Shown piece after piece: positions 3,108 through 24,368 of a stretch of DNA of 25,260 nt. Below the pieces are notes generated by a model. It ran no database searches. It was not told where the DNA came from and saw only the letters and a program-made list of their open reading frames with translations. Location of the stretch: IMG/VR virus record IMGVR_UViG_3300023296_001674; one strand, written 5' to 3'. Position 1 is the stretch's first letter; each line of letters begins with the position of its first letter. The translations under genes were made by a program, and so were the position numbers. The DNA comes from a virus.

Positions 3108-3394
3108 TTGAGCAAACGAGATCGAATACAGTGTTAACGCGGAACGAGACTGCTAGGAACACTTAAAATATACCTAATATGGGCGCGTTGTGGATGGATT
3201 TCCTTTTGTGGAATGATAAAAGCAATGGTAGGAAGCAAAGCGACCTACTAGGGAAAGCGTTATATGCTTTCCTGATAAGTTATTTTGTATGGAAGTGCCA
3301 TTAAAGCAGAACAATTGGTTTGGCGACCAAGCACCTTCGGGGCATAAAATCTGCTACTACTATACTATTTTAATCATAACTAAGTGTCACAAAA

Positions 3395-3464
3395 TATTGT
3401 ATGGTGTAGTGGTAACACGCTGCCTTTATCGGCGGAGCCGTGGGTTCGAGTCCTACTATGATAT
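3395..3464 (+). tRNA. tRNA-like gene: 7/7 acceptor stem (two G-U), D-arm gtgt/acac, GGTTCGAGTCC T-arm, but only a 6-nt anticodon loop and no encoded CCA
   Basis: Manual cloverleaf; acceptor tattgta pairs with tatgata. Confidence 0.35.
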
Positions 3465-3822
3465 TTGGATTACGTTCAGTGTGCACACCGAACGCCACAA
3501 ATTATCTGTTATTATCGCGATAGTGATAGATAATGTTGGGTCACTTAGTTATGATTAAAGTTTTTAGGGTGTTCGTCTAGTGGATTAGGACGCGCCGCCT
3601 TGGGTAGTTGGAGTTCGATTCTCCTTAGCAACGGTTACGTAAATCCGCACGGTGAGACATTGGTTCGAATCCAATACATGTTAAAATAACGATTTCACAT
3701 GAGATGTATAGTTTTAATGGATAAATCAGGCATGAGCCTTGTGCGGCAAGATAGTGGGTTCGATTCCCCTTGCGTTGAATGTGAAATGATGCTATATTGG
3801 TTTTTTAATATAGGAGATAATA

Positions 3823-6089: not shown

Positions 6090-6854
6090 TTAATCATTGT
6101 GTAGTTGCGTTTTTTCATATTCATCGACATCAAGTTTTAATTGTTTATATGTGATAGATGATGTATTACGTTTTTTTACATTATCTTTCTGAAGCATTAT
6201 TTCACAATTTAATGGATGTGTAATATAATATGGATCATACTTGTTAACAATTGATTCATTTATAGATATTTTATGATCCCTCGCTACACCGTTTGAATTT
6301 TTCTTTGGGACATACCAACCATGTTTTTTTATTAAATCTAAATTGAGTAGATTGGGATAATCATTGACATCAAATTTGAAATAATATGGACGTTTCGTAG
6401 TTTGAAGTTCTTTTGCTGTTCTACCATATTGTTCAACGCAGCATTGACATTTTGATATATACCGATCTTTGGCGGTGAAAAGTGTAATACAGGTGGAGCA
6501 AGTTCTAAACCATACCATGGAATATTCACCATCGATATATTTTTTTAGTTTATCCCATCTTTTTGGATAATGACCAATATCTTTTATGATTTTGATATGA
6601 CTTTTACTCATTCGTTCTTTAGTTTCATTGCTATGTTTGCGACGGCTATTATTATATTTGGCGGCACAAGATTGATTACAATATTTCTTTTTTATAAGTG
6701 CTTCATCGTATGACCATGATTTGCCGCATTGGTTGCATGTTTTTGGATTTTTATTATATTCGGCAATGCGATGGTTTTTTTGATTTATTTGCGTTTTTCG
6801 TGAAGCTATAAATCCTAATTTACCAGCTTCAGATTTGGACAATTTACATGTCAT
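6090..6854 (-). CDS. HNH-family homing endonuclease (254 aa), one of four paralogs; N-terminal CxxC / C-N-Q-SCAAKYNNSRRK zinc-binding-like motif, C-terminal RDHxxS...HPxNC core
   Basis: SD aagga upstream of the ATG at 6854; conserved C-terminal block shared with ORFs 8344, 11473 and 14042. Confidence 0.75.
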   Translation of the reverse strand: MTCKLSKSEAGKLGFIASRKTQINQKNHRIAEYNKNPKTCNQCGKSWSYDEALIKKKYCNQSCAAKYNNSRRKHSNETKERMSKSHIKIIKDIGHYPKRWDKLKKYIDGEYSMVWFRTCSTCITLFTAKDRYISKCQCCVEQYGRTAKELQTTKRPYYFKFDVNDYPNLLNLDLIKKHGWYVPKKNSNGVARDHKISINESIVNKYDPYYITHPLNCEIMLQKDNVKKRNTSSITYKQLKLDVDEYEKTQLHND

Positions 6855-8286: not shown

Positions 8287-8362
8287 TTCAGATGACCAAG
8301 CAAGTGAACGGGACCGCCTGTTAAGCGGATATTGCAGGGAGCGTTACCCTGATCTGGAGCCA
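8287..8362 (+). tRNA. tRNA-Asn, anticodon GUU, non-canonical T-loop agcgtta
   Basis: Acceptor ttcagat/atctgga, loop ctgttaa, T-stem caggg/ccctg. Confidence 0.7.
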
Positions 8363-8991
8363 ATAACTTTATATTTTTTGTCCCATTCATTTATTCGATG
8401 GTATAAATCATATAATGATAAACTTGAATGACGATTTTTAGATGAATTTTCTGGCTGTGGCATTATCTTGCAGTTCGCTGGATGTGATATATGATTTGGG
8501 TCTATTTTGTTTACAAATCCATCATGTACACTATACATGTGATCTCTTGTTAATCCGTTTTTATTTTTGGTACTATGATACATGCCCTGTTGATGTATCA
8601 TTATAAAATCAAATTCTTCTGGAAATGTTTGAAATGAAAATATAAATTTACATTGTTCTTTATATTTTATCTTCTCAATCATGTATTCTTGTGGTGTCAC
8701 CCTCATGGCATTTGTGCAAGTAACTGCACAACTTCTTCCGCAATAATATTCACGAGTTCCGGTTATAGGGCTAAATTTATTATTACATGTTGGATTTTTA
8801 CACTCGATTAGTCGTTTTTGATATTTTGTTAAATTTTTTACCGATATTTCTTTTTTGGTGAATATGCAACTACATGTAATATGTGATATTTTACCGTTGC
8901 TTTTGCCATGCATACGTGAATGACCATTCAATGCCATTAAGGATTTAAATTGATTATCGCATATATTACATGTATAAATATCTTTAGACAT
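8344..8991 (-). CDS. HNH-family homing endonuclease paralog (216 aa from the MSKDIYTCNIC start)
   Basis: The ORF track extends further, but GGAGG SD precedes the ATG at 8991; same conserved C-terminal core. Confidence 0.7.
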   Translation of the reverse strand: MSKDIYTCNICDNQFKSLMALNGHSRMHGKSNGKISHITCSCIFTKKEISVKNLTKYQKRLIECKNPTCNNKFSPITGTREYYCGRSCAVTCTNAMRVTPQEYMIEKIKYKEQCKFIFSFQTFPEEFDFIMIHQQGMYHSTKNKNGLTRDHMYSVHDGFVNKIDPNHISHPANCKIMPQPENSSKNRHSSLSLYDLYHRINEWDKKYKVIGSRSG

Positions 8992-9080
8992 TATCAACCT
9001 CCATTGGTTGTTATAGTTTAGAAGATATGGGGAATTCCAGTTCTCTATATCTTCGTTAGTATTTATCAATAACATATTAT

Positions 9081-9166
9081 TCGGATATAGGAGAATTGGT
9101 AGACCCAGAAGATTGTTAATCTTCCGCAGCAATGCATTCCAGGTTCGAGTCCTGGTATCCGAGCCA
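9081..9166 (+). tRNA. type-II-like tRNA (86 nt, Leu-like D-arm GAATTGGTAGA, variable-arm hairpin) whose anticodon loop reads GUU
   Basis: Acceptor tcggata/tatccga perfect, anticodon stem gaaga/tcttc, loop ttgttaa, T-arm ccaggTTCGAGTcctgg. Confidence 0.65.
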
Positions 9167-9167
9167 A

Positions 9168-9240
9168 TAACACCGTAGCGTAGAAAATAGTTACTTCGTT
9201 TCACTCACGACTGGAATGGGTTCGATTCCCATGCCCTGCG
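9168..9240 (+). tRNA. tRNA-like gene with D, anticodon and T arms but no matching 5' acceptor strand; no CCA
   Basis: T-arm atgggTTCGATTcccat; its 3' strand gccctgc pairs only with the downstream fragment at 9244. Confidence 0.35.
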
Positions 9241-9353: not shown

Positions 9354-9677
9354 ATGAGTGACGAACGACGAAATAGTTCCAGATTTTCGACTGGGCGTGT
9401 ATCATATTTACGATTGAACGATTATTATTTTCCATTGGTTGATATTAGTGATGATGGATTTTTTGCGGAATGCAGTGATGGTTCATTGAGTATTGGCGAT
9501 GTTGTTGATATTGAAATACATATCAGTGATCGACATGGAATAGCTACATTTAACACTGAAACAGAGATACTGCGTGTTGGCGGTAGATTTATTGCAGGAA
9601 AATGGGATTTAGAATTAAACAGGGCTACGGATTGCGTTAAAACTTATTTTGACAATAGGCACGCACAAGTAGCATAA
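9354..9677 (+). CDS. hypothetical protein (107 aa)
   Basis: SD ggag upstream of ATG. Confidence 0.55.
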   Translation: MSDERRNSSRFSTGRVSYLRLNDYYFPLVDISDDGFFAECSDGSLSIGDVVDIEIHISDRHGIATFNTETEILRVGGRFIAGKWDLELNRATDCVKTYFDNRHAQVA

Positions 9678-9849: not shown

Positions 9850-9923
9850 AGGGGTATCGTATAGTGGTAATACGGTGGATTCCAAACTCACAGACCGGGG
9901 TTCGATCCCTCGTTCCCCTGCCA
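9850..9923 (+). tRNA. tRNA-Trp, anticodon CCA
   Basis: D-stem gtat/atac, loop ttccaaa, T-arm cggggTTCGATCcctcg. Confidence 0.75.
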
Positions 9924-9939
9924 ATTTAACGAGAATAAC

Positions 9940-11166
9940 ATGCATTTTATAATAAGTATCGATAGTGTATCAACGGATAGTCGGCATTATGACTGTGCCA
10001 AAAGTGATGAAAACTGTTGGCTTGATATATACGATGGCAATATCTATAACGATACTATATTAACCAATGCATTTTCATATAAAAACAAAACGATAAAACT
10101 TGATAAAGGTTGGCATACATTAGACCGCGACAAAGATGTTGTATGGTTTAAGGGTTATTCAACAGAAGCAAGATTGATTGATAGGGTTGAAGCCCGTAAT
10201 TATTCATCAATGGATGGAAATTATTGTTTTATTGTGTTTGATAAAACGACAGAATGTATTAACATATATCATGATACCAATCGTGGATTTGGTATATATT
10301 ATACAGATTCTATTATAACCAATTTATATACAATCAAAACATGCGTTAAGTTTGACGGGTGTATCATGGTAGATCACAATGACGAAATAATTGTTTCATC
10401 GTTACAGACAACGTTCACATTGCCTGATATAATTAAAGACAAATCTATTGACGATATGGCTGCTATTATAGCGCCTATGATGATTAAGAAAATCGAAGGA
10501 TTTATGAAATATAATAATGTGGTTGATTTAGAAATACAAGCAACTGGCGGTTTAGATACATTAACGGTGCGTGCATTATTAGATATCTGCGCGATTGATT
10601 ATAAATTGATTGATATAAAACCATTTAAAGATGGATGCAACTGGACTAATGATACAAATTCAATGATGGATATATTATCAAAATATCATTGGGGATTTCA
10701 GCAATGCAATTATTATGATGATATTACATATGTTGCCACTGGTTTTTGGGGCGATGAGTTATTGATGCGCAATCCGCTTCAAGTTCATTGGATATTGAAT
10801 CATTATGATATTGATTTATCGAATGAATATACAAAGCACCCTGATTCATATATGCTAGGATATTTTCAACAAGCGTATAAAGAGAAACTTATAGAACGCG
10901 ATAAAATATTTTCCAATGAAAATGAATTATATCAATATTCATTAGATTATGCACTTGATGAACCACAGATAACGCATGTTGATAATGTTATAATGTTTTC
11001 ACCATTTAAGGGTATTGACATATATATGAAAACACTCAATATGACGAATGAGGCAATATTAGAACAGGTTATAAATGGTGCACTGCAAAAGAAAATTATA
11101 TACGATATTAATCCTAAGTTATTGGATTGCTTAGAAAAATATAAAAATAGAAGAATACCAGTGTAA
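9940..11166 (+). CDS. asparagine-synthetase-like protein (408 aa): AsnB-type block GNYCFIVFD...IYHDTNRGFGIYY and PP-loop-like TGGLDT, but no N-terminal catalytic Cys
   Basis: Motif recall of AsnB (MFAFALYD...GRDHLGIIPLYMGY; SGGLDS). Confidence 0.5.
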   Translation: MHFIISIDSVSTDSRHYDCAKSDENCWLDIYDGNIYNDTILTNAFSYKNKTIKLDKGWHTLDRDKDVVWFKGYSTEARLIDRVEARNYSSMDGNYCFIVFDKTTECINIYHDTNRGFGIYYTDSIITNLYTIKTCVKFDGCIMVDHNDEIIVSSLQTTFTLPDIIKDKSIDDMAAIIAPMMIKKIEGFMKYNNVVDLEIQATGGLDTLTVRALLDICAIDYKLIDIKPFKDGCNWTNDTNSMMDILSKYHWGFQQCNYYDDITYVATGFWGDELLMRNPLQVHWILNHYDIDLSNEYTKHPDSYMLGYFQQAYKEKLIERDKIFSNENELYQYSLDYALDEPQITHVDNVIMFSPFKGIDIYMKTLNMTNEAILEQVINGALQKKIIYDINPKLLDCLEKYKNRRIPV

Positions 11167-11228: not shown

Positions 11229-11498
11229 ATGGATAATAGTACATTAATAGCGTTAGGAAGTTTGTTGTTTGCCATGATTGGTGGATTTTGGGGTGTCATA
11301 ACATACATCCTTGGAATCATCAAGGTGGAAAACGTTGAACGTCGTGGTGTCCAAGAAAAATTATATATGCGCGATGATGTAGCCAAAGATGTAATGAACG
11401 AAAGTTTAACAGAAGTAAAAAGTACCATCCGTGATACGAATGATAGACTCATACGTGTAGAAACAATATTATATGAAAGAACTGATAGAACAAAATAA
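11229..11498 (+). CDS. small membrane protein (89 aa), one N-terminal TM helix
   Basis: Hydrophobic segment LIALGSLLFAMIGGFWGVITYILGII. Confidence 0.45.
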   Translation: MDNSTLIALGSLLFAMIGGFWGVITYILGIIKVENVERRGVQEKLYMRDDVAKDVMNESLTEVKSTIRDTNDRLIRVETILYERTDRTK

Positions 11499-12108
11499 AA
11501 TATGGTTTTTAAGCAAAACGGTAATACGTTGTATAAATAGTTATATGGTTGATTTAAGAAAGAGTTTGCAAACACCAAAAGTTTGCTGTATTGAATGTAA
11601 AACAATATTTAGAACTAATCATTTTGTTAGACACTCGAAGAAGCGATGTATTGAGTGGAAAAAGAAAAACGGCATGATCCCAAAAGGGAAGCGTGGCGGT
11701 TGGAATAAAGGATTAACGAAAATGACTAGTTCGTTGGTCAAAAAAGGAACCGATACTTATCGTCGCCGTTATGAAAATGGTGAATATACACGACGCACAC
11801 AAACCGATGATATAAAGAAACAATATTGGCAAGATTGTAAATTTAAATTCAATGTTTATAATTATCCTGAAATATTTGACTTAAATTTACTCGATAAATT
11901 TGGGTGGTATCATCCTGTAGAAAATCCAAGTGGCGTAAGTAGAGATCATATTATTTCTGTATCATATGGATGGAAAAATGGTATAGATTCGAATATTATT
12001 AATCATATAGCCAATTGTAAATTGATGATTCATTTAGAAAATAACAAAAAAAATAATCGATCTGATTTATTATTAGAAGAATTATTACAAAAAATACACT
12101 CTATGTAG
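11473..12108 (+). CDS. HNH-family homing endonuclease paralog (211 aa)
   Basis: SGVSRDHIISVSYGWKNGIDSNIINHIANCKLM core; N-terminal CxxC pairs. Confidence 0.7.
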   Translation: MKELIEQNKIWFLSKTVIRCINSYMVDLRKSLQTPKVCCIECKTIFRTNHFVRHSKKRCIEWKKKNGMIPKGKRGGWNKGLTKMTSSLVKKGTDTYRRRYENGEYTRRTQTDDIKKQYWQDCKFKFNVYNYPEIFDLNLLDKFGWYHPVENPSGVSRDHIISVSYGWKNGIDSNIINHIANCKLMIHLENNKKNNRSDLLLEELLQKIHSM

Positions 12109-13765: not shown

Positions 13766-13843
13766 TGACTAGTAGCTCAGTGGTTTAGAGCGGGGAGTTC
13801 TAAACTCTCGACAGCGTTGGTTCAAATCCAACCTGGTCAACCA
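13766..13843 (+). tRNA. tRNA with anticodon CUA (amber-suppressor-like); U1-A72 acceptor
   Basis: D-arm GCTCAGTGGTTTAGAGC, anticodon stem gggag/ctctc, loop ttctaaa, T-arm gttggTTCAAATccaac, CCA encoded. Confidence 0.6.
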
Positions 13844-14022: not shown

Positions 14023-14041
14023 ATATTTGATAAATAGTTAT

Positions 14042-14818
14042 ATGAAATGTAAACAATGTAAAATATCATTTACCCCTATCCCACAAGCAAAAAAAGGTAT
14101 ATTTTGTTCGCACGATTGTCATAATGTATACCAGCGCGTAAATACTCGTGAGCAATACTTAAAAAATCCCAAACGGTGTATTTTTTGTGATGATATAATA
14201 TCATATAGAGAAAATATAAAAGTGGCGAAGTTTTGCAATAGGTCTTGCGGGGCAAAATATAATAATAAAAGACGTACAGAATGCGGATACACCCCAAGTC
14301 ATAAAAAATGGTCTAGTGGTAAAATATCTGCTAAAATGTCATCAAAAATGCGCCGTGCGGATATCAAATCAAGTGTCGTGTTTGGTGATTTTACTATAAT
14401 AACATTTGCTATATGCAATATTACGAATAAACCATATGTTCTACAAACACCGCATGGTGGTATAAAGCAAATATCACCATATATTAAATCATCTAAACAG
14501 ATATATTATGAGCAAGCCAAATTTCGATTTAATGTATATGACTATCCAGATATATTTGATATAACACTTTTAGAAAAATATGGATGGTATACATGTCCCG
14601 GCAAGAAACGAAAAAATCAAAAAAAGAATATAAATGGTGTAAGTAGAGATCATATAATATCTATCAATGATGGATTTAAGAATGGGTATGATCCATATAT
14701 TTTAGCACATCCTGCTAATTGTCGATTGATTAAACAAGTGGATAATGTTAAAAAATTAGATAAATCTAATATGTCATATGACGAGTTATTGATTAACATA
14801 AAACAATGGAATGGATAG
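14042..14818 (+). CDS. HNH-family homing endonuclease paralog (MKCKQCK start; the ORF track's TTG at 14027 overlaps the tRNA), TAG stop
   Basis: CNRSCGAKYNNKRR motif and NGVSRDHIISINDGFKNGYDPYILAHPANCRL core. Confidence 0.7.
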   Translation: MKCKQCKISFTPIPQAKKGIFCSHDCHNVYQRVNTREQYLKNPKRCIFCDDIISYRENIKVAKFCNRSCGAKYNNKRRTECGYTPSHKKWSSGKISAKMSSKMRRADIKSSVVFGDFTIITFAICNITNKPYVLQTPHGGIKQISPYIKSSKQIYYEQAKFRFNVYDYPDIFDITLLEKYGWYTCPGKKRKNQKKNINGVSRDHIISINDGFKNGYDPYILAHPANCRLIKQVDNVKKLDKSNMSYDELLINIKQWNG

Positions 14819-14825
14819 ACTATTC

Positions 14826-14900
14826 GCCCCTATAGTACAATGGTTAATATGATCGCCCGGTAAGCGATAGATGAAAGTTCGATTCTTTCTAGAGGCACCA
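14826..14900 (+). tRNA. tRNA-Thr, anticodon GGU
   Basis: Anticodon stem atcgc/gcgat perfect, loop ccggtaa, T-arm gaaagTTCGATTctttc. Confidence 0.8.
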
Positions 14901-14912
14901 ATAAATAACAAT

Positions 14913-15728
14913 ATGACAATGACACCACCAAATATTATAATTTATAGTAATCCACGTTCAGGAACCACATTGCTTCATCATACATTATTATTATTTTTTC
15001 AAGAATATTATGGTGATTATTATTGTGATTTACATGAATTCTTTACAACATCGCATATGACAACGAGACATCGTAATAATATAGATGAAATAAATTCCAT
15101 TACGTATGAACAGAATAACAATATATTAATAAAGACATACAAGCCAGCAGATACCGAAAGCAATGACTTCGAAGAAGAATTGCAACAACGAATTTCACAA
15201 TGGAACAATTGTGTAATAGCTGATAACAATCAGCCGTTTATAACAAAAATATTTCACAAAAATTTGATTGATCACAATTTTTCAAATACAATATTTGATC
15301 ATTCATTAAATTTGGTTCTTGTAAGAAAAAACGTACAAGATATGATATTGAGTTTTATAATATCAAATAGCAACAATAACTGGTTTTATTATGAAAATGA
15401 AAATATAGAAACATTGCGCGGAAGTTTGATTGGTGATATAGATATAATACGCATTCATTTGGAACGCAATAAATTATTTCTTGAAAATATACCCAATATA
15501 CCCAATGCATTAATCATTGATTATGATGAACTTAATGACTATGAATATTTTTATCAAGTTATTATAGATATGGGCATTGTTGATATTCGTGAATTGCATG
15601 CCATGGAAATATTTGATAACATACAGCTAAAACGTAAAATTATTCCAACACCATATACAATGGATCGTATAGATTATTTTAAGAATGCCAATGAAATAAA
15701 AACACTCATGGATGAATATTGTTCTTGA
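14913..15728 (+). CDS. sulfotransferase-like protein (PRSGTT PAPS-binding-like motif near the N-terminus), 272 aa from the ATG at 14913
   Basis: NPRSGTTLLH resembles the sulfotransferase 5'-PSB loop; the ORF track start at 14871 overlaps a tRNA. Confidence 0.45.
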   Translation: MTMTPPNIIIYSNPRSGTTLLHHTLLLFFQEYYGDYYCDLHEFFTTSHMTTRHRNNIDEINSITYEQNNNILIKTYKPADTESNDFEEELQQRISQWNNCVIADNNQPFITKIFHKNLIDHNFSNTIFDHSLNLVLVRKNVQDMILSFIISNSNNNWFYYENENIETLRGSLIGDIDIIRIHLERNKLFLENIPNIPNALIIDYDELNDYEYFYQVIIDMGIVDIRELHAMEIFDNIQLKRKIIPTPYTMDRIDYFKNANEIKTLMDEYCS

Positions 15729-16799: not shown

Positions 16800-17129
16800 A
16801 TGGATAAAGCTGCGCTAAAAACACTTTCCGATACTCTTAATCGGATATGGGGAATCCCTGAACCAAGGGTCTATTATCCGAATAAACATTTCGAAAAACC
16901 TGAACCAGTTGAACAGACAATGTTCTCAGTGTTCATTCTTGACGCTGGTCCTAAACGGATTAACGTCATTAAAGAAATCAGATCAATCTTAGGATTGACC
17001 CTGAAAGAATCAAAGGATTTTGTTGATAATATAGACAAGAGCCTTGTTCAAGAAGACTTAGAAAAATGGGATGCAGATGCATTAGCCGAAACATTATCAA
17101 ATGTTGGAGCAACTGTTGAAGTTTCTTAA
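16800..17129 (+). CDS. ribosomal protein bL12 (L7/L12) C-terminal-domain homolog fused to a novel N-terminal segment (109 aa)
   Basis: FSVFILDAGPKRINVIKEIRSILGLTLKESKDFVDN...DADALAETLSNVGATVEV matches the bL12 CTD pattern. Confidence 0.6.
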   Translation: MDKAALKTLSDTLNRIWGIPEPRVYYPNKHFEKPEPVEQTMFSVFILDAGPKRINVIKEIRSILGLTLKESKDFVDNIDKSLVQEDLEKWDADALAETLSNVGATVEVS

Positions 17130-17471: not shown

Positions 17472-18023
17472 ATGCGCGGAACATTAGAAGTGATTACTGG
17501 CCCAATGTTTGCCGGTAAGACGACAGAAATAATAAAACGATTATTATGGTCAAAACATCAAGGTAAATCAACAATTATATACAAACCAGCAATGGATGAT
17601 AGATATAGTGAAACTGAAATAGTTACACATACCAAATTTTCATACGAAGCAACATCCATCATTGATAGTTTTAATATCAATCCAACATACGATCATTATT
17701 TTTTTGATGAAATACAGTTTCATGATAAAAATATTGTTCCATCTATAACTAAATTATTAGATGAAGGAAAAAATGTAACGGTGGCTGGTTTAGACGCTGA
17801 TTATAAAGGTGTTGCATTTGCGAACACTGCTACGTTAATGGCGATGGCAGACGAAGTATTTAAGATAAAATCGCATTGTAGTTTATGTGGCAAAGATGCT
17901 GCTAAAACATTTAAAACTGGTTCGACAAGCGACCAGCGCATAGAATTGGGTGAAAATGACTTATACCGTGCCAGATGTAATGAGCATTGGTATGTATCAG
18001 GAACTGACGATAGTTTTTCTTGA
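17472..18023 (+). CDS. tdk: thymidine kinase (TK1 family)
   Basis: P-loop GPMFAGKTTE, C-terminal CxxC...CxxH zinc ribbon; SD agga. Confidence 0.8.
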   Translation: MRGTLEVITGPMFAGKTTEIIKRLLWSKHQGKSTIIYKPAMDDRYSETEIVTHTKFSYEATSIIDSFNINPTYDHYFFDEIQFHDKNIVPSITKLLDEGKNVTVAGLDADYKGVAFANTATLMAMADEVFKIKSHCSLCGKDAAKTFKTGSTSDQRIELGENDLYRARCNEHWYVSGTDDSFS

Positions 18024-18079: not shown

Positions 18080-19063
18080 ATGGATAACAACAATTACAAC
18101 GATTTAAAACAGCGTTTGGTTAATGCAGGATGTTTCGAACGAGCGACATCGCATTATGTTCTACGTATTACAGCAATTCTAATTGCTTATGTGGGAGCAT
18201 ATTTTGTTCTGCTTACACAGCCACTAGGATTGGTTGCAGTGGGTGCATTGATTATTGCAGCCTTTGCCAGCGTTCAGGCTGGTTTCATTTCACACGATGC
18301 TGGTGATGGCGGTATTACATCAAATAAGATGCTATCTACCGGTATGCGACAATTCTTTTTATCGTTTGTTACTGGTGTGAGTAGTTCATATTTTCATGCA
18401 CTACATAAAGTGCATCACAAAACAATGTTTAAAGGATCATCGAAATCATCCGACACAGTTTCAGAAAATGAATACGAAGGCAAATGGTTGAAGAAATTAG
18501 TTTCACGTGATGGTTTGTTATTCATGGTAACGATGGTTACATTACGGGGATTCACATTCAAATTTGAAAGTGTAAAATATATGCTTAAACACGCCAATAA
18601 AACCGCCGCAGATCAACTGTTGGTGGGATTGCACGTTGTAGCATGGCTGATCGTTCCAATGATGATTATTGGACCAGTAGCCATTCTAAACTATGCATTA
18701 TTGACGTTGTTGATTGGACCTTATATCGGAACGGTATTGGTTATTAATCATGCCGGTATGGTAACAGCAAACCGACAAATGCATTTGCCTAAATTTGAAC
18801 GCGTAGTAAATACTACACGCAATCTTGGTGACGGCGTTTGGAACAATCTGTTCTTCGGTGGTGTAAACAACCATATTGAACACCATTTGTTTCCGGGTGT
18901 GCCAGTGCCAAATCTAGGTGAAGCTAGAAAGATTACTGAAGCCTTTTGTGAAGAACGTGGTATTAAATACACCAAAGCTTCATATTTCAGCGCATTAATC
19001 GAAGCCAAAGACCATTTCAAGGGTTTGTCTTCACAGAGATTAGTTGCTGAAGCACTCAACTAA
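18080..19063 (+). CDS. membrane fatty-acid-desaturase-family protein (desaturase / carotenoid-ketolase-like His boxes)
   Basis: HDAGD, HKVHH and HIEHHLFPGVP boxes with several TM segments; SD aggag. Confidence 0.65.
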   Translation: MDNNNYNDLKQRLVNAGCFERATSHYVLRITAILIAYVGAYFVLLTQPLGLVAVGALIIAAFASVQAGFISHDAGDGGITSNKMLSTGMRQFFLSFVTGVSSSYFHALHKVHHKTMFKGSSKSSDTVSENEYEGKWLKKLVSRDGLLFMVTMVTLRGFTFKFESVKYMLKHANKTAADQLLVGLHVVAWLIVPMMIIGPVAILNYALLTLLIGPYIGTVLVINHAGMVTANRQMHLPKFERVVNTTRNLGDGVWNNLFFGGVNNHIEHHLFPGVPVPNLGEARKITEAFCEERGIKYTKASYFSALIEAKDHFKGLSSQRLVAEALN

Positions 19064-19073
19064 GGGAAACTAT

Positions 19074-19550
19074 ATGTTTAAATTTAATGTATGTAATTAC
19101 AGTGATTCACTGTATTCAATGGACAACTATACCAAGGCTATTGGTATAGTTGATCCAGATGAAAAAGTAACACCATCAGAAAAATATCATGTTGCACGAT
19201 GCCACGATATAGTAATGCAGGAACACCCTTGGGTGGCTCCCACAATAGACCAGTTTGTCGCAATTATGAATTTTGCAGAAGATTTTACAGACGATGATGT
19301 TGTAATGATTCATTGCTCTGCTGGTATATCACGCAGCACTGCAACTGCCATATTGTTATTAATGTTGCATGGCGCTGACGAAGAAGAAGCATTTAATGCT
19401 GTTGAACAAAATAGACCAAACATGAATCCAAACACATTGATTCTTCGCTTTGCTGATGAATTATTAGGAATGGATGGCGGTTTGATTGAATATCATAAAC
19501 AATGGATGGCGAAACGGGTTATTAAACCAGTTAGTTTCGCAGGACAATAA
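19074..19550 (+). CDS. dual-specificity (Cys-based) protein phosphatase
   Basis: CX5R signature HCSAGISRS; SD aaggga before the ATG at 19074 (ORF track start 19044 is less likely). Confidence 0.7.
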   Translation: MFKFNVCNYSDSLYSMDNYTKAIGIVDPDEKVTPSEKYHVARCHDIVMQEHPWVAPTIDQFVAIMNFAEDFTDDDVVMIHCSAGISRSTATAILLLMLHGADEEEAFNAVEQNRPNMNPNTLILRFADELLGMDGGLIEYHKQWMAKRVIKPVSFAGQ

Positions 19551-22192: not shown

Positions 22193-23101
22193 ATGCTTTT
22201 TATTGGGTCTACTGCATTTAAACAACATCATAATTTACCGGGAATTTTACCGAAAGATATTGATGTTATGGGAACATACGAAGATGTTTCAAAGTATGTA
22301 AAAAGTCTTCATGGTGATCTGGTTGCTGCAAGACCATTTGCGGAAGGTAAGAAATATCTTTTCGTTAAGGCTGGTGATCATAAATCACCCGAAACAATTA
22401 TTGAAGCAGAGATTGCGTGGGAAGGATCGTTAGCAGAAGAATTTATCAAATTGATGGATGATACTGCTGGACATACACGATATGCTACATTGAATGGTTT
22501 ATATACCCTTAAGATGTCGCATCGATATTTGAGAAACTCGCCACATTTTTTAAAGACAATGCGTGATATTCATTTTATGAGAACACTGAAGGCTAGAATT
22601 CCAGATGAGTTGAAGGATTTTTACAAACGGCGAATGGCAGCAACGTATGATTATTCTCATCCTAATTTGAGTGTTACGAAAAAGACATTTTTTGATGGTG
22701 ATGGTATTGATTATAAATATGACCATGATTCAATCCATGAGACAGTTAAGATTGGTGAACATCCGGCTTATTGGTATTTTAAGCCAGATACAAGTGAAGT
22801 TGCGGTAAGCAAGGATTTGTTTGAAGCACTTGATTATGAATCACGAATCAATTCGGTTTTGGAAGAGGCGTATGTTCTTGCTATTGAACGTTCACAGGTT
22901 CCACATCCGGGTGTATTAACACGTAGAAAGAGTTTTGTTCTTGCATTAAATAAAGTATGCTCAAGCATTACTTCTGGATGGTGGAGAGAGTTCGCATGGG
23001 AGAATTATGATTCTGTGTATGAACGATATGACGATTCATATATGTATCGTTTTAACGCTGGAATAGATAGTGGATTGGTAAAACCATTCAATGAGGGATA
23101 G
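22193..23101 (+). CDS. Pol-beta-superfamily nucleotidyltransferase (302 aa)
   Basis: N-terminal hG[GS]x(n)DhDh: IGSTAFKQHHNLPGILPKDIDVM; SD aaagga; TAG stop. Confidence 0.5.
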   Translation: MLFIGSTAFKQHHNLPGILPKDIDVMGTYEDVSKYVKSLHGDLVAARPFAEGKKYLFVKAGDHKSPETIIEAEIAWEGSLAEEFIKLMDDTAGHTRYATLNGLYTLKMSHRYLRNSPHFLKTMRDIHFMRTLKARIPDELKDFYKRRMAATYDYSHPNLSVTKKTFFDGDGIDYKYDHDSIHETVKIGEHPAYWYFKPDTSEVAVSKDLFEALDYESRINSVLEEAYVLAIERSQVPHPGVLTRRKSFVLALNKVCSSITSGWWREFAWENYDSVYERYDDSYMYRFNAGIDSGLVKPFNEG

Positions 23102-23768: not shown

Positions 23769-24368
23769 GTGCGGAAGCATCTACATACACGAACACTGTT
23801 GACACACTACGGAGGTGTCTTCATCGATAATAATGTCGAAGAAGTTATAGTTCCGTCGTTATGGGAACAGCAGACATTTATTGATAAAGCAGGAAGTGAA
23901 ATTGTAAATCAGATGTGGGCATTTGAAGATAAGAAAAATCGCCCCGTATGTTTGATACCAGAAGTTACTGGTGTTATACAAGAAATGTGGCGCGATGATT
24001 GGAGTAAATCCAAACCAAAGCCATATTCTATTTTTTATGTGAATCGTTGTTATCGTTATGAACGACCACAGAAGGGTAGATATAGAGAATTCACACAAAT
24101 CGGATTAGAAATTCTTGGTGATACATCAGGGAATGATTACGATATGGCAATTAATTTATTGCAAAAGTGTCTCGATTGTTTTACTATAGATTATAAACTT
24201 ACAGAAACGGTACAACGCGGTTTGGCGTATTATGTTGATGATGGGTTTGAAGTCGAATGTGAGAAGTTGGGCGCACAGAAGCAAATTGCTGGTGGTGGTC
24301 GATACAATGAAGGTATTGGTTGGGCTATCGGCGTTGATAGATTAATATTGGGGATTGATGATGACTAG
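23769..24368 (+). CDS. minimal class II aaRS catalytic core of the HisRS/HisZ type (motif 1 region FEDKKNRPVCLIPEVT, motif 2 YRYERPQKGRYREFTQ, motif 3 GGGRYNEG), lacking the insertion and anticodon-binding domains
   Basis: Motif recall against E. coli HisS; an upstream ATG at 23741 with SD aaggag opens a different frame (MLRGTRL...), suggesting a frameshift at about 23790. Confidence 0.65.
   Translation: MRKHLHTRTLLTHYGGVFIDNNVEEVIVPSLWEQQTFIDKAGSEIVNQMWAFEDKKNRPVCLIPEVTGVIQEMWRDDWSKSKPKPYSIFYVNRCYRYERPQKGRYREFTQIGLEILGDTSGNDYDMAINLLQKCLDCFTIDYKLTETVQRGLAYYVDDGFEVECEKLGAQKQIAGGGRYNEGIGWAIGVDRLILGIDDD

What the first reader, a model, noticed from the sequence alone, without database searches (positions are those of the whole stretch)
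9940..11166. Asparagine-synthetase-like amidotransferase homolog lacking the catalytic N-terminal cysteine
The blocks IYDGNIYND, GNYCFIVFD...IYHDTNRGFGIYY and the PP-loop-like EIQATGGLDT parallel AsnB (VNGEIYNH, MFAFALYD...GRDHLGIIPLYMGY, SGGLDS). The protein starts MHFIISID, with no Cys2, so glutaminase activity is unlikely. It may be an ammonia-dependent adenylating enzyme. It sits in the tRNA island, so a role in tRNA or aminoacyl modification is conceivable.
Basis: partly seen in the sequence, partly recalled or inferred. Interest (0 to 1): 0.5.

Follow-up and report, generated by a model that had tools for sequence, protein, structure and literature searches.

The report
Cys-less asparagine-synthetase-like phage enzyme
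This gene encodes a compact relative of asparagine synthetase B that keeps the ATP-using half of the enzyme and has lost the glutamine-splitting cysteine; it belongs to a large, unstudied, mostly phage-borne family whose substrate is unknown.

The parts
9940..11166 (+). Complete CDS, 408 aa plus TAA stop: a Cys-less AsnB-superfamily protein.
   Evidence: ORF list. Start and stop read. An identical protein is on record on contigs of up to 570,750 bp.
9940..10404 (+). N-terminal domain (about residues 1-155) with a class-II/Ntn glutamine-amidotransferase-like beta-sandwich. Residue 2 is His, not Cys. Family-invariant D55, W58 and K71, with G57, G72, G93, R115 and N128 near-invariant.
9967..10056 (+). 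Low model confidence; absent from most family members.
   Evidence: Alignments. pLDDT blocks of 31-42 and 51-53.
10216..10302 (+). GNYCFIVFD...IYHDTNRGFGIYY block (residues 93-121), homologous to AsnB GMFAFALYD...RDHLGIIPLY.
   Evidence: hhalign, high per-column confidence.
10435..11163 (+). C-terminal synthetase domain (about residues 166-408) with a PP-loop ATP-pyrophosphatase fold.
10543..10560 (+). PP-loop T202-G-G-L-D-T207. Family consensus is [S/T]-G-G-x-D-[T/S]; G204 in 154 of 154, D206 in 153 of 154.
   Evidence: In-register hmmsearch alignments to AsnB, human ASNS, CarA, NAD synthetase and GMP synthase. hhalign. Conservation.
10738..10776 (+). T267-G-F-W-G-D-E...R277-N-P279, aligned to AsnB S-G-E-G-S-D-E. 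D272 and E273 fall on the invariant AsnB D352/E353 (numbering counts Met1). F269 occupies the position of AsnB Glu348. R277 is family-specific (153 of 154).
   Evidence: hhalign extended alignment. AsnB invariants. Conservation.
10957..10977 (+). D340-E-P-Q-I-T-H346. The family motif is N-D-x-Q-H-W-H, which falls on the AsnB YDCARANK region (the substrate site, from memory). The window protein keeps Q343 and H346 but has E for D341 (D in 140 of 154) and T for W345 (W in 140 of 154).
   Evidence: hhalign. Conservation.
11143..11148 (+). K402-N403, a near-invariant C-terminal pair (K in 153 of 154, N in 145 of 154). Candidate counterpart of the catalytic Lys of AsnB/beta-LS; the register is not resolved.
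   Evidence: Conservation. Conflicting low-confidence registers.

Best explanation
The gene encodes a compact (408 aa against about 500-550 aa) member of the asparagine synthetase B superfamily. It has an Ntn/class-II amidotransferase-like N-domain that cannot hydrolyse glutamine because it has no N-terminal Cys. This domain is fused to an apparently intact PP-loop synthetase domain.

The most likely chemistry is that of the superfamily. ATP/Mg2+ bound at the PP-loop adenylates a substrate carboxylate, releasing PPi. A nitrogen nucleophile that is not derived from glutamine then attacks the acyl-AMP. That nucleophile could be free ammonia, an amine of a co-substrate, or an amine within the same substrate. 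The product is an amide or a lactam.

The substrate is not aspartate, because the substrate-site motif is family-specific. In most relatives the enzyme is encoded beside a twitch-domain radical SAM enzyme and often directly after ClpP, which suggests a two-enzyme phage pathway. This copy, in a roughly 570 kb phage-like genome, has been separated from those partners. It sits between homing-endonuclease-like genes in a tRNA/translation-gene island.

Shown here: fold, domain architecture, PP-loop, GDE motif, absence of Cys, family size and gene neighbourhoods. Inferred: catalytic competence, adenylation chemistry, the nature of the nucleophile, and any functional link to the radical SAM or Clp proteins.

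For: Sequence: hhalign of family against AsnB profile gives E 2.4e-9 and E 7.5e-10 over query 13-404 to AsnB 57-468. 32 of 100 relatives hit PF00733, and no other Pfam family recurs in more than 2. All marginal PDB profile hits align on the PP-loop.

Active site: G204 is in 154 of 154, D206 in 153, D272 in 140 (the other 14 have E), E273 in 129, K402 in 153. The window protein keeps all of these.

No Cys: His2 here; Phe2 in 136 of 154 and Phe3 in 148 of 154.

Viral structure library: the best matches are phage and giant-virus proteins named asparagine synthase or GATase type 2.

Partners: ClpP (PF00574, E 8e-78) is immediately upstream in 42 of 56 observable loci. The radical SAM is immediately downstream in 51 of 66. 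After dereplication at 60% identity the figures are 12 of 22 and 16 of 24. All five radical SAM partners tested, from different sub-branches, exceed the curated cutoff of NF033640 (178-291 bits against 170).
Against: No biochemical data exist for any member. Direct Pfam, NCBIfam, PHROGs and PDB sequence searches of the window protein are negative.

The position of AsnB Glu348 / beta-LS Tyr348 is Phe here and varies across the family (F47, A43, S18, G14, T13), so the catalytic base is not the known one. The mapping of K402 to the catalytic Lys is unresolved.

The window protein departs from near-invariant family residues (F2H, P118G, D341E, W345T). It is only 43% identical to its ortholog in a related genome whose neighbouring genes are 62-80% identical. 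Relaxed constraint or a changed substrate is therefore possible.

The partners seen elsewhere are absent from about 42 kb around this gene. Gene adjacency may partly reflect shared ancestry of related phages rather than function.
Confidence: 0.78

Rival explanations
1. It amidates a sugar or glycan carboxylate, such as a uronic acid on a nucleotide sugar, as WbpS-type AsnB homologs do in polysaccharide biosynthesis. The radical SAM partner would modify the same sugar.
For: Sugar-pathway genes lie within a few kb in several family loci: UDP-glucose/GDP-mannose dehydrogenase in L003; a GT2 in L008; GT2s, a DegT aminotransferase and an epimerase next to the radical SAM in L095; a GT1/GT4 cluster in 4 loci. 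The KVP40 relative of the radical SAM lies two genes from a gene annotated with a PF00534 (glycosyltransferase group 1) match. PMC7029224 reports radical SAM cassettes in the host-recognition cluster of marine pelagimyophages and, separately, lists LPS-related genes among those present in marine genomes.
Against: The sugar genes are neither adjacent nor consistent across loci; no sugar-related cluster appears in more than 4 of 87 loci. None lies near the window gene apart from a weak sulfotransferase-like ORF 3.7 kb downstream.
Confidence: 0.12
2. It is a peptide (RiPP-type) macrolactam or amide-forming enzyme, analogous to lasso-peptide cyclases. It would work with the twitch/SPASM-like radical SAM maturase and a protease.
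For: Lasso cyclases are AsnB homologs (established knowledge). The partner radical SAMs give secondary NCBIfam hits to many SPASM/twitch peptide maturases. A protease (ClpP) is the most frequent upstream neighbour.
Against: No conserved small precursor ORF accompanies the module; the positions beyond the radical SAM are occupied by many different small clusters, each in 9 or fewer of 87 loci. No transglutaminase-like B protein or RRE was seen. The ClpP is a canonical housekeeping-type ClpP (E 8e-78), not a leader peptidase.
Confidence: 0.08
3. It acts on tRNA or aminoacyl-tRNA, for example as a PP-loop tRNA-modifying enzyme or a tRNA-dependent amidotransferase.
For: The gene sits in a 27-tRNA array within a translation-gene island: IF3 upstream, bL12, and a HisRS-like fragment and a full AspRS downstream. 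Its 43%-identical ortholog in a related 257 kb contig also has 7 tRNAs just upstream and AspRS 3.2 kb downstream. tRNA-Asn lies 0.8 kb upstream.
Confidence: 0.05
4. It is a genuine asparagine synthetase carried as an auxiliary metabolic gene. It would be glutamine-dependent, or ammonia-dependent on aspartate.
For: Some relatives carry the automatic names 'asparagine synthetase B' (JGI) or 'Asparagine synthase' (UniProt names in BFVD).
Against: There is no N-terminal Cys. The AsnB substrate-site region is replaced by a different invariant motif. The protein is about 150 aa shorter than AsnB. Identity to AsnB-family structures is only 8-12%. PF00733 is never reached at its gathering threshold.
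Confidence: 0.03
5. This particular copy is a decaying or non-catalytic remnant, stranded by mobile elements away from its partner genes.
For: It carries substitutions at near-invariant positions (F2H, P118G, D341E, W345T). It diverges much faster than its neighbours (43% against 62-80%). It lacks the radical SAM and ClpP partners. It is flanked by paralogous endonuclease-like genes.
Against: The ORF is full length and intact in the window genome and in a related one. All strictly invariant residues and the PP-loop are kept. The fold is predicted with very high confidence.
Confidence: 0.06

Closest known systems
Beta-lactam synthetase (beta-LS, PDB 1jgt) and carbapenam synthetase (CarA, PDB 1q15)
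   Different: Only 8-12% identity. They are about 500 aa against 408. The beta-LS catalytic Tyr348 position is Phe here and variable in the family. They belong to actinomycete and enterobacterial antibiotic clusters, not phage genomes. No clavam or carbapenem pathway genes are nearby. This family has its own invariant residues in both domains (D55, W58, K71, R277, Q343, H346).
Asparagine synthetase B (E. coli AsnB, PDB 1ct9; human ASNS)
   Different: No Cys1 (His2 here, Phe2 in the family). The Glu348 position is not conserved. The substrate-site motif differs. The protein is about 150 residues shorter. No Pfam PF00733 hit.
TsnB9 hydroxyamidotransferase (PDB 7ylz)
   Different: 576 aa, part of a Streptomyces secondary-metabolite pathway. 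No sequence-level similarity was detected.
Phage and giant-virus proteins annotated 'asparagine synthase' (e.g. Achromobacter phage Motura A0A514CSI5; Hyperionvirus A0A3G5AEI9)
   Same: Best hits in the viral structure library (Foldseek E 5.7e-10 and 2.3e-9). Viral AsnB-fold proteins of similar size (426-440 aa for the top two).
   Different: The Motura protein is recognisably similar in sequence to E. coli AsnB residues 24-179 (tblastn E 2e-11), whereas this family is not. tblastn of the window protein, P0171 and P0003 finds nothing in 50,697 deposited phage genomes.

Membership tests
AsnB superfamily (class-II/Ntn GATase-like N-domain + PP-loop synthetase C-domain) | Two-domain fold shared with AsnB, beta-LS and CarA. 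| tested here: met
AsnB superfamily (class-II/Ntn GATase-like N-domain + PP-loop synthetase C-domain) | PP-loop motif S-G-G-x-D-S/T at the start of the synthetase domain. | tested here: met
   T202-G-G-L-D-T207. Family consensus [S/T]GGxD[T/S], with G204 in 154 of 154 and D206 in 153 of 154. Aligned in register to AsnB, ASNS and CarA.
AsnB superfamily (class-II/Ntn GATase-like N-domain + PP-loop synthetase C-domain) | Significant sequence-profile match to Asn_synthase (PF00733) or AsnB. | tested here: inconclusive
   Direct hmmscan of the window protein gives no hit. 32 of 100 relatives hit PF00733 below the gathering score, best E 1.8e-4. The profile-profile comparison is significant: probability 96.5%, E 7.5e-10.
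AsnB superfamily (class-II/Ntn GATase-like N-domain + PP-loop synthetase C-domain) | Conserved acidic S-G-E-G-S-D-E motif of the synthetase site. | tested here: met
   T-G-F-W-G-D-E aligns to it. D272 and E273 fall on the invariant AsnB D352/E353 (Met1 numbering). D is in 140 and E in 129 of 154 family members.
AsnB superfamily (class-II/Ntn GATase-like N-domain + PP-loop synthetase C-domain) | Catalytic Lys near the C-terminus (AsnB K449 / beta-LS K443, from memory). | tested here: inconclusive
   K402 is in 153 of 154 members, but three alignments give different low-confidence registers. No coordinates were available for superposition.
Glutamine-dependent asparagine synthetase proper (EC 6.3.5.4) | N-terminal Cys nucleophile (Cys directly after the initiator Met). 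| tested here: not met
   The sequence starts M-H-F. The family has Phe at position 2 in 136 of 154 and never Cys.
Glutamine-dependent asparagine synthetase proper (EC 6.3.5.4) | Aspartate-site residues (the YDCxRANK region) and Glu348. | tested here: not met
   The region is replaced by the family motif N-D-x-Q-H-W-H (DEPQITH here). The Glu348 position is Phe269 and is variable in the family.
Beta-lactam synthetase / carbapenam synthetase | Cys-less N-domain together with a PP-loop C-domain. | tested here: met
Beta-lactam synthetase / carbapenam synthetase | Catalytic Tyr (beta-LS Y348) at the AsnB Glu348 position, and a clavam or carbapenem gene cluster around the gene. | tested here: not met
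   The position is Phe269 here, and F/A/S/G/T across the family. No antibiotic-pathway genes appear in the window or in 100+ related loci.
Lasso-peptide cyclase (RiPP C protein) | Co-located precursor peptide, B-type leader peptidase and RRE. | tested here: not met
   There is no co-conserved small ORF or transglutaminase-like gene. Apart from ClpP, the radical SAM and a 535 aa unknown (19 loci), each neighbour cluster occurs within 4 genes in 9 or fewer of 87 loci. Detection of small precursors by clustering ORFs of 70 aa or more is incomplete.
PP-loop tRNA-modifying enzymes (TilS, ThiI, MnmA, TtuA/NcsA) | PP-loop domain plus a tRNA-binding domain; genomic or functional link to tRNA. | tested here: not met
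QueC / 7-deazaguanine pathway (PP-loop amidoligase with radical SAM QueE) | QueC profile match, with QueE-type radical SAM and FolE/QueD/DpdA neighbours. | tested here: not met
   PF06508 is hit by 2 of 100 members at E 0.063 or worse. The partner radical SAMs are NF033640, with QueE models only at E 1e-3 to 1e-4. No FolE, QueD or DpdA was seen in the contexts.

The most novel reading that the evidence does not exclude
In this lineage of very large phages, a Cys-less AsnB-fold enzyme has been detached from its usual radical SAM and ClpP partners and fixed in the tRNA / aminoacyl-tRNA-synthetase island. tRNA-Asn lies 0.8 kb upstream, and a phage bacterial-type AspRS lies downstream in both this genome and a related one. 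The enzyme could there act on an aminoacyl-tRNA or tRNA carboxylate, for example amidating Asp-tRNA(Asn) to Asn-tRNA(Asn). That would be a tRNA-dependent amidation route unrelated to GatCAB. More broadly, the parent family together with the twitch radical SAM would be a previously undescribed two-enzyme phage pathway.
Probability: 0.04. Interest if true: 0.85.

Novelty: new variant of a known kind. Interest (0 to 1): 0.45.

Why it matters
The AsnB fold has repeatedly been recruited for unusual amide and lactam chemistry, including beta-lactams, carbapenems, lasso peptides and hydroxamates. This work defines a large family (at least 411 clusters at 50% identity) that no Pfam, PHROG or NCBIfam model covers. 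It is compact and Cys-less, and it is found almost only in uncultured aquatic phage-like contigs. It is usually paired with one specific radical SAM family and often with ClpP. That points to an unrecognised phage-encoded modification or small-molecule pathway, and it gives enzymologists a defined pair of proteins to express. For the window itself, the result turns an unannotated ORF in a tRNA island into a fold-level assignment. It also shows that the tRNA neighbourhood is not a reliable guide to function.

Tried and rejected
- Direct searches of the window protein found nothing useful: Pfam, PHROGs, NCBIfam, PADLOC and PDB sequences.
- The 11-sequence profile against PDB gave only spurious hits.
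- tblastn of the window protein, the core member P0171 and the marine member P0003 against 50,697 deposited phage genomes gave no match. megablast of the region against phages also gave none.
- Two GTDB genome scans gave one hit, on a 7.9 kb contig of a Rickettsiales MAG. A viral-contig scan with the relative P0021 found nothing.
- hhalign against a single AsnB sequence was only marginal (probability 53%). It became significant only after I built an 8-sequence AsnB profile.
- The AFDB fold library was unavailable.
- Three attempts to fix the register of K402 against AsnB K449 gave inconsistent results.
- The KVP40 relative of the radical SAM gave no useful context.
- Pfam scans of ten recurrent neighbour clusters were mostly empty.
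- Literature searches for the combination AsnB-like + radical SAM + ClpP + phage found nothing. Two papers gave only general context on radical-SAM-rich T4-like and pelagimyophage genomes.
- TAG recoding, suggested by the tRNA with a CUA anticodon, is not supported.
- A defence-system role has no PADLOC support.
- I first suspected a eukaryotic giant virus as the source, because of C2H2, DSPc and desaturase genes. I set that aside because of bacterial-type IF3, bL12, ClpX and AspRS and strong PHROG matches. No virion gene was seen in the roughly 45 kb viewed, so 'phage' remains an inference.

Full report
**1. The observation**

The window holds an intact ORF at 9940..11166 (+) of 408 aa. It starts 16 nt after tRNA-Trp (9850-9923) and ends in TAA. 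An identical protein is on record on contigs of up to 570,750 bp, and I retrieved its surroundings from a 74 kb assembly of the same genome.

**2. Is it AsnB-like?**

Routine searches say nothing.
- Pfam gives only an unrelated DUF1765 hit at E 0.069.
- PHROGs, NCBIfam and PDB sequences give nothing.

The protein does have relatives. A word-indexed search found 11. An exhaustive HMM search found 411 cluster representatives at 50% identity with E 0.001 or better, 225 of them at E 1e-30 or better, nearly all 340-410 aa.

Structure prediction was decisive.
- With 11 sequences, AlphaFold2 gave pLDDT 76 and pTM 0.82.
- With 100 sequences it gave pLDDT 91.1 and pTM 0.91.
- The two-domain combination is therefore specifically that of the AsnB superfamily.

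Sequence profiles agree once they are deep enough.
- 32 of 100 relatives hit PF00733 Asn_synthase below threshold (best E 1.8e-4), and no other Pfam family recurs in more than two.
- The family profile's marginal PDB hits all align in register on the PP-loop.
- Against an AsnB-superfamily profile that I built from E. coli asnB and seven plasmid-borne homologs, hhalign gives probability 96.2% and E 2.4e-9.
- With relaxed settings it gives E 7.5e-10 over query 13-404 to AsnB 57-468.

**3. Residue-level reading**

- GNYCFIVFD...HDTNRGFGIYY aligns to GMFAFALYD...RDHLGIIPLY.
- ATGGLDT aligns to LSGGLDS.
- It also places T267-G-F-W-G-D-E on AsnB S-G-E-G-S-D-E. D272 and E273 therefore fall on residues that are invariant in the AsnB profile.
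- F-S-P355-F-K-G-I-D falls on R-V-P-F-L-D-K-K.

Across 154 aligned family members:

| Residue | Members with the consensus residue |
|---|---|
| G204 | 154 |
| D206 | 153 |
| G268 | 154 |
| D272 | 140 (the other 14 have E) |
| R277 | 153 |
| P355 | 153 |
| K402 | 153 |
| N403 | 145 |

The third parallel (IYDGNIYND to VNGEIYNH) is not supported. It lies in an insert (about residues 10-39) found only in the window protein's small sub-branch, and this is the one poorly predicted segment.

The family N-terminus is M-F-F (Phe2 in 136 of 154, Phe3 in 148 of 154) and never Cys. In Ntn amidotransferases the Cys exposed by Met removal is the nucleophile (established knowledge), so glutamine hydrolysis can be excluded with good confidence.

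Even so, the N-domain is not a relic. D55, W58 and K71 are invariant, and G57, G72, R115 and N128 are nearly so. This implies a retained binding or structural role.

The position of AsnB Glu348 / beta-LS Tyr348 is Phe269 here and is variable in the family. The AsnB substrate-site region is replaced by a family motif, N-D-x-Q-H-W-H. The substrate is therefore not aspartate, and the catalytic base is not the known one. Whether K402 corresponds to the catalytic Lys of AsnB/beta-LS is unresolved, because three alignments give three registers.

**4. Where the family lives and with what**

Occurrence:
- No member is found in 50,697 deposited phage genomes.
- GTDB representative genomes gave one hit, on a 7.9 kb contig of a Rickettsiales MAG.
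- IMG/VR gave one locus.
- A metagenome scan gave 242 confirmed hits, of which 80 loci were kept. Judging by contig names they are mostly lake metagenomes.

Neighbourhood of 87 loci of the core sub-branch:
- A canonical ClpP (PF00574, E 8e-78) lies immediately upstream on the same strand in 63 loci. That is 42 of the 56 loci where the upstream flank is long enough to judge.
- In the loci shown, the ClpP stop overlaps the start of the AsnB-like gene.
- A radical SAM protein of about 378 aa, with a CNFACQTC motif, lies immediately downstream and convergent in 54 loci. That is 51 of the 66 observable loci.
- After dereplication at 60% identity the figures are 12 of 22 and 16 of 24.

Divergent sub-branches tell the same story for the radical SAM. 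L002, L091, L093, L095 and L096 all have one within about 4 kb. Five partners from different branches all exceed the curated cutoff of a single NCBIfam family, NF033640 'twitch domain-containing radical SAM protein' (178-291 bits against a cutoff of 170).

Clp-system genes also recur: ClpP in the freshwater loci, and ClpS and ClpX in the marine ones. The remaining neighbours are mostly unknown proteins, with scattered sugar-pathway genes.

The contexts resemble the radical-SAM-rich, Grx/PaaD/ClpP-carrying T4-like environmental genomes of Nishimura et al. (PMC5332604) and the pelagimyophages of Zaragoza-Solas et al. (PMC7029224). Neither paper mentions this protein.

**5. The window copy is atypical**

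- About 42 kb around the gene (window plus L001, L107 and L109) contains no NF033640-type radical SAM and no ClpP. A ClpX lies about 19 kb upstream.
- The gene sits in a translation-gene island: IF3, 27 tRNAs, bL12, a HisRS-like fragment and a full bacterial-type AspRS.
- It is bracketed by two of four paralogous endonuclease-like genes of phrog_23051.
- Its nearest relative with context, P0023 (43% identity), lies on a 257 kb contig that is syntenic with this genome (AspRS 80%, DSPc 63%, AstE-like 62%). That locus has 7 tRNAs just upstream, and its nearby radical SAM is not of the NF033640 type. The tRNA/aaRS setting is thus inherited within one lineage and counts as a single observation.
- The AsnB-like protein diverges much faster than its neighbours.
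- A third sub-branch member, P0035 (38%), sits among ordinary cellular genes on a 98 kb contig of an NCBI assembly.
- Family-wide, only 4 of 89 loci contain any tRNA.
- The window protein keeps every strictly invariant residue but departs at four near-invariant ones: F2H, P118G, D341E and W345T.

**6. Mechanism and rivals**

The best-supported mechanism is that of the superfamily. It is shown for AsnB, beta-LS and CarA in the literature and inferred here. The PP-loop domain binds ATP/Mg2+ and adenylates a substrate carboxylate. A nitrogen nucleophile that does not come from glutamine then attacks the acyl-AMP to form an amide or lactam. I put 0.78 on this general statement.

What the substrate is remains open. 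The rivals are:
- sugar or glycan carboxylate amidation (0.12);
- RiPP-type peptide cyclisation or amidation with the radical SAM (0.08);
- decay or a non-catalytic remnant for this copy (0.06);
- a tRNA or aminoacyl-tRNA substrate (0.05);
- genuine asparagine synthesis (0.03).

The first three and the tRNA reading are sub-cases or modifiers of the main statement rather than strict alternatives to it.

**7. Comparison with what is known, and novelty**

It works like the Cys-less branch of the AsnB superfamily (beta-LS, CarA). It passes the fold, PP-loop and GDE-motif tests for superfamily membership. It fails the tests for being an asparagine synthetase proper (no Cys1, different substrate site) and for being a beta-LS/CarA ortholog (no catalytic Tyr, no pathway context).

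A few relatives already carry automatic 'asparagine synthase' names, so the resemblance itself is not new. What is new:
- the delineation of a large, model-less, largely phage-borne family;
- its conserved pairing with NF033640 radical SAM enzymes, and frequently with ClpP;
- the atypical, partner-less copy in the translation island of a very large phage.

I rate it a new variant of a known kind, with interest 0.45.

Noticed in passing
L003, L008, L036 and about 60 other metagenome loci (e.g. L003:9378-12312): A conserved three-gene block in uncultured, mostly freshwater, phage-like contigs: canonical ClpP, then the Cys-less AsnB-like gene (stop/start overlapping in the loci shown), then a convergent NF033640 'twitch-domain' radical SAM. 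ClpP is adjacent in 42 of 56 observable loci and the radical SAM in 51 of 66. No literature was found on it.
   Followed up: partly
window 6090-6854(-), 8344-9204(-), 11473-12108(+), 14027-14818(+): Four paralogous ORFs of phrog_23051, with secondary HNH / endonuclease VII-like hits, are scattered through the tRNA array. Two of them bracket the AsnB-like gene and share 44% identity over their C-terminal 94 aa. One carries a C2H2 zinc finger. They look like homing endonucleases that may have shuffled this island.
   Followed up: partly
window 13766-13843: A tRNA with a CUA anticodon (amber-reading; ARAGORN labels it 'Pyl'). Treating TAG as sense does not lengthen ORFs more than treating TGA or TAA as sense, so there is no sign of TAG recoding in this window.
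   Followed up: partly
window 3394-3465: ARAGORN calls a tRNA-like gene with an undetermined identity and a two-base 'anticodon' (ta). It may be a degenerate or unusual tRNA.
   Followed up: no
window 1-25260 and flanks (L107, L109): The window is part of a translation-gene island of a roughly 570 kb genome. Upstream lie ClpX, an AAA+ protein and IF3. The window holds 27 tRNAs, bL12 (16800-17129) and a 199 aa HisRS-like fragment (23769-24368). A full bacterial-type AspRS with a GAD domain lies about 3.3 kb past the window end. No virion gene was seen in the roughly 45 kb viewed.
   Followed up: partly
window 9354-9677: A 107 aa ORF directly upstream of tRNA-Gly/tRNA-Trp has PilZ-like motifs (RRxxxR ... 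DISDDG) and a weak Pfam PilZ hit (E 0.012). This hints at a c-di-GMP-binding protein and a bacterial host.
   Followed up: no
window 14871-15728, 17472-18023, 18080-19063, 19044-19550, 22193-23101: Other cargo in the island: a sulfotransferase-like ORF (PF00685, E 2.8e-5), thymidine kinase, a fatty-acid desaturase, a dual-specificity phosphatase, and a DUF7277+DUF7275 protein (phrog_2141, E 7e-97).
   Followed up: no
L110 (257 kb contig, ERZ24794644 NODE_140) against the window genome: A related very large phage-like genome shares syntenic AspRS (80% identity), DSPc (63%) and an AstE/AspA-like gene (62%). Its AsnB-like ortholog is only 43% identical, so that gene evolves much faster than its neighbours. 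In the window genome, about 15 kb of tRNAs and other genes separate the AsnB-like gene from the AstE-like/AspRS block, which lies 1.6-3.2 kb downstream in L110.
   Followed up: partly
L112:10001-11224 (NCBI assembly GCA_030149295.1, contig JASBRV010000078.1): A 38%-identical member of the window protein's sub-branch sits alone among ordinary cellular genes: an RND pump, aminotransferases, a PLD-family enzyme, adenosine deaminase and a sulfatase. The contig is 98 kb with 39% GC. It may come from a bacterial relative or host lineage; the organism was not identified.
   Followed up: no
L076 and L067: Two of the core-family freshwater loci do carry tRNA arrays: 20 tRNAs in L076 and 9 in L067, with the nearest 1.2-2.9 kb from the AsnB-like gene. 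They are exceptions to the general absence of tRNAs (4 of 89 loci).
   Followed up: no
L096/L097/L098 and L093: Marine loci show a recurring ClpS - two small ORFs - glutaredoxin - AsnB-like arrangement. It is followed by an unknown 359-393 aa protein and the radical SAM, with ferredoxin, SufE and an FeS-assembly protein downstream. ClpX, S21 and Hsp20 lie upstream in L093.
   Followed up: no
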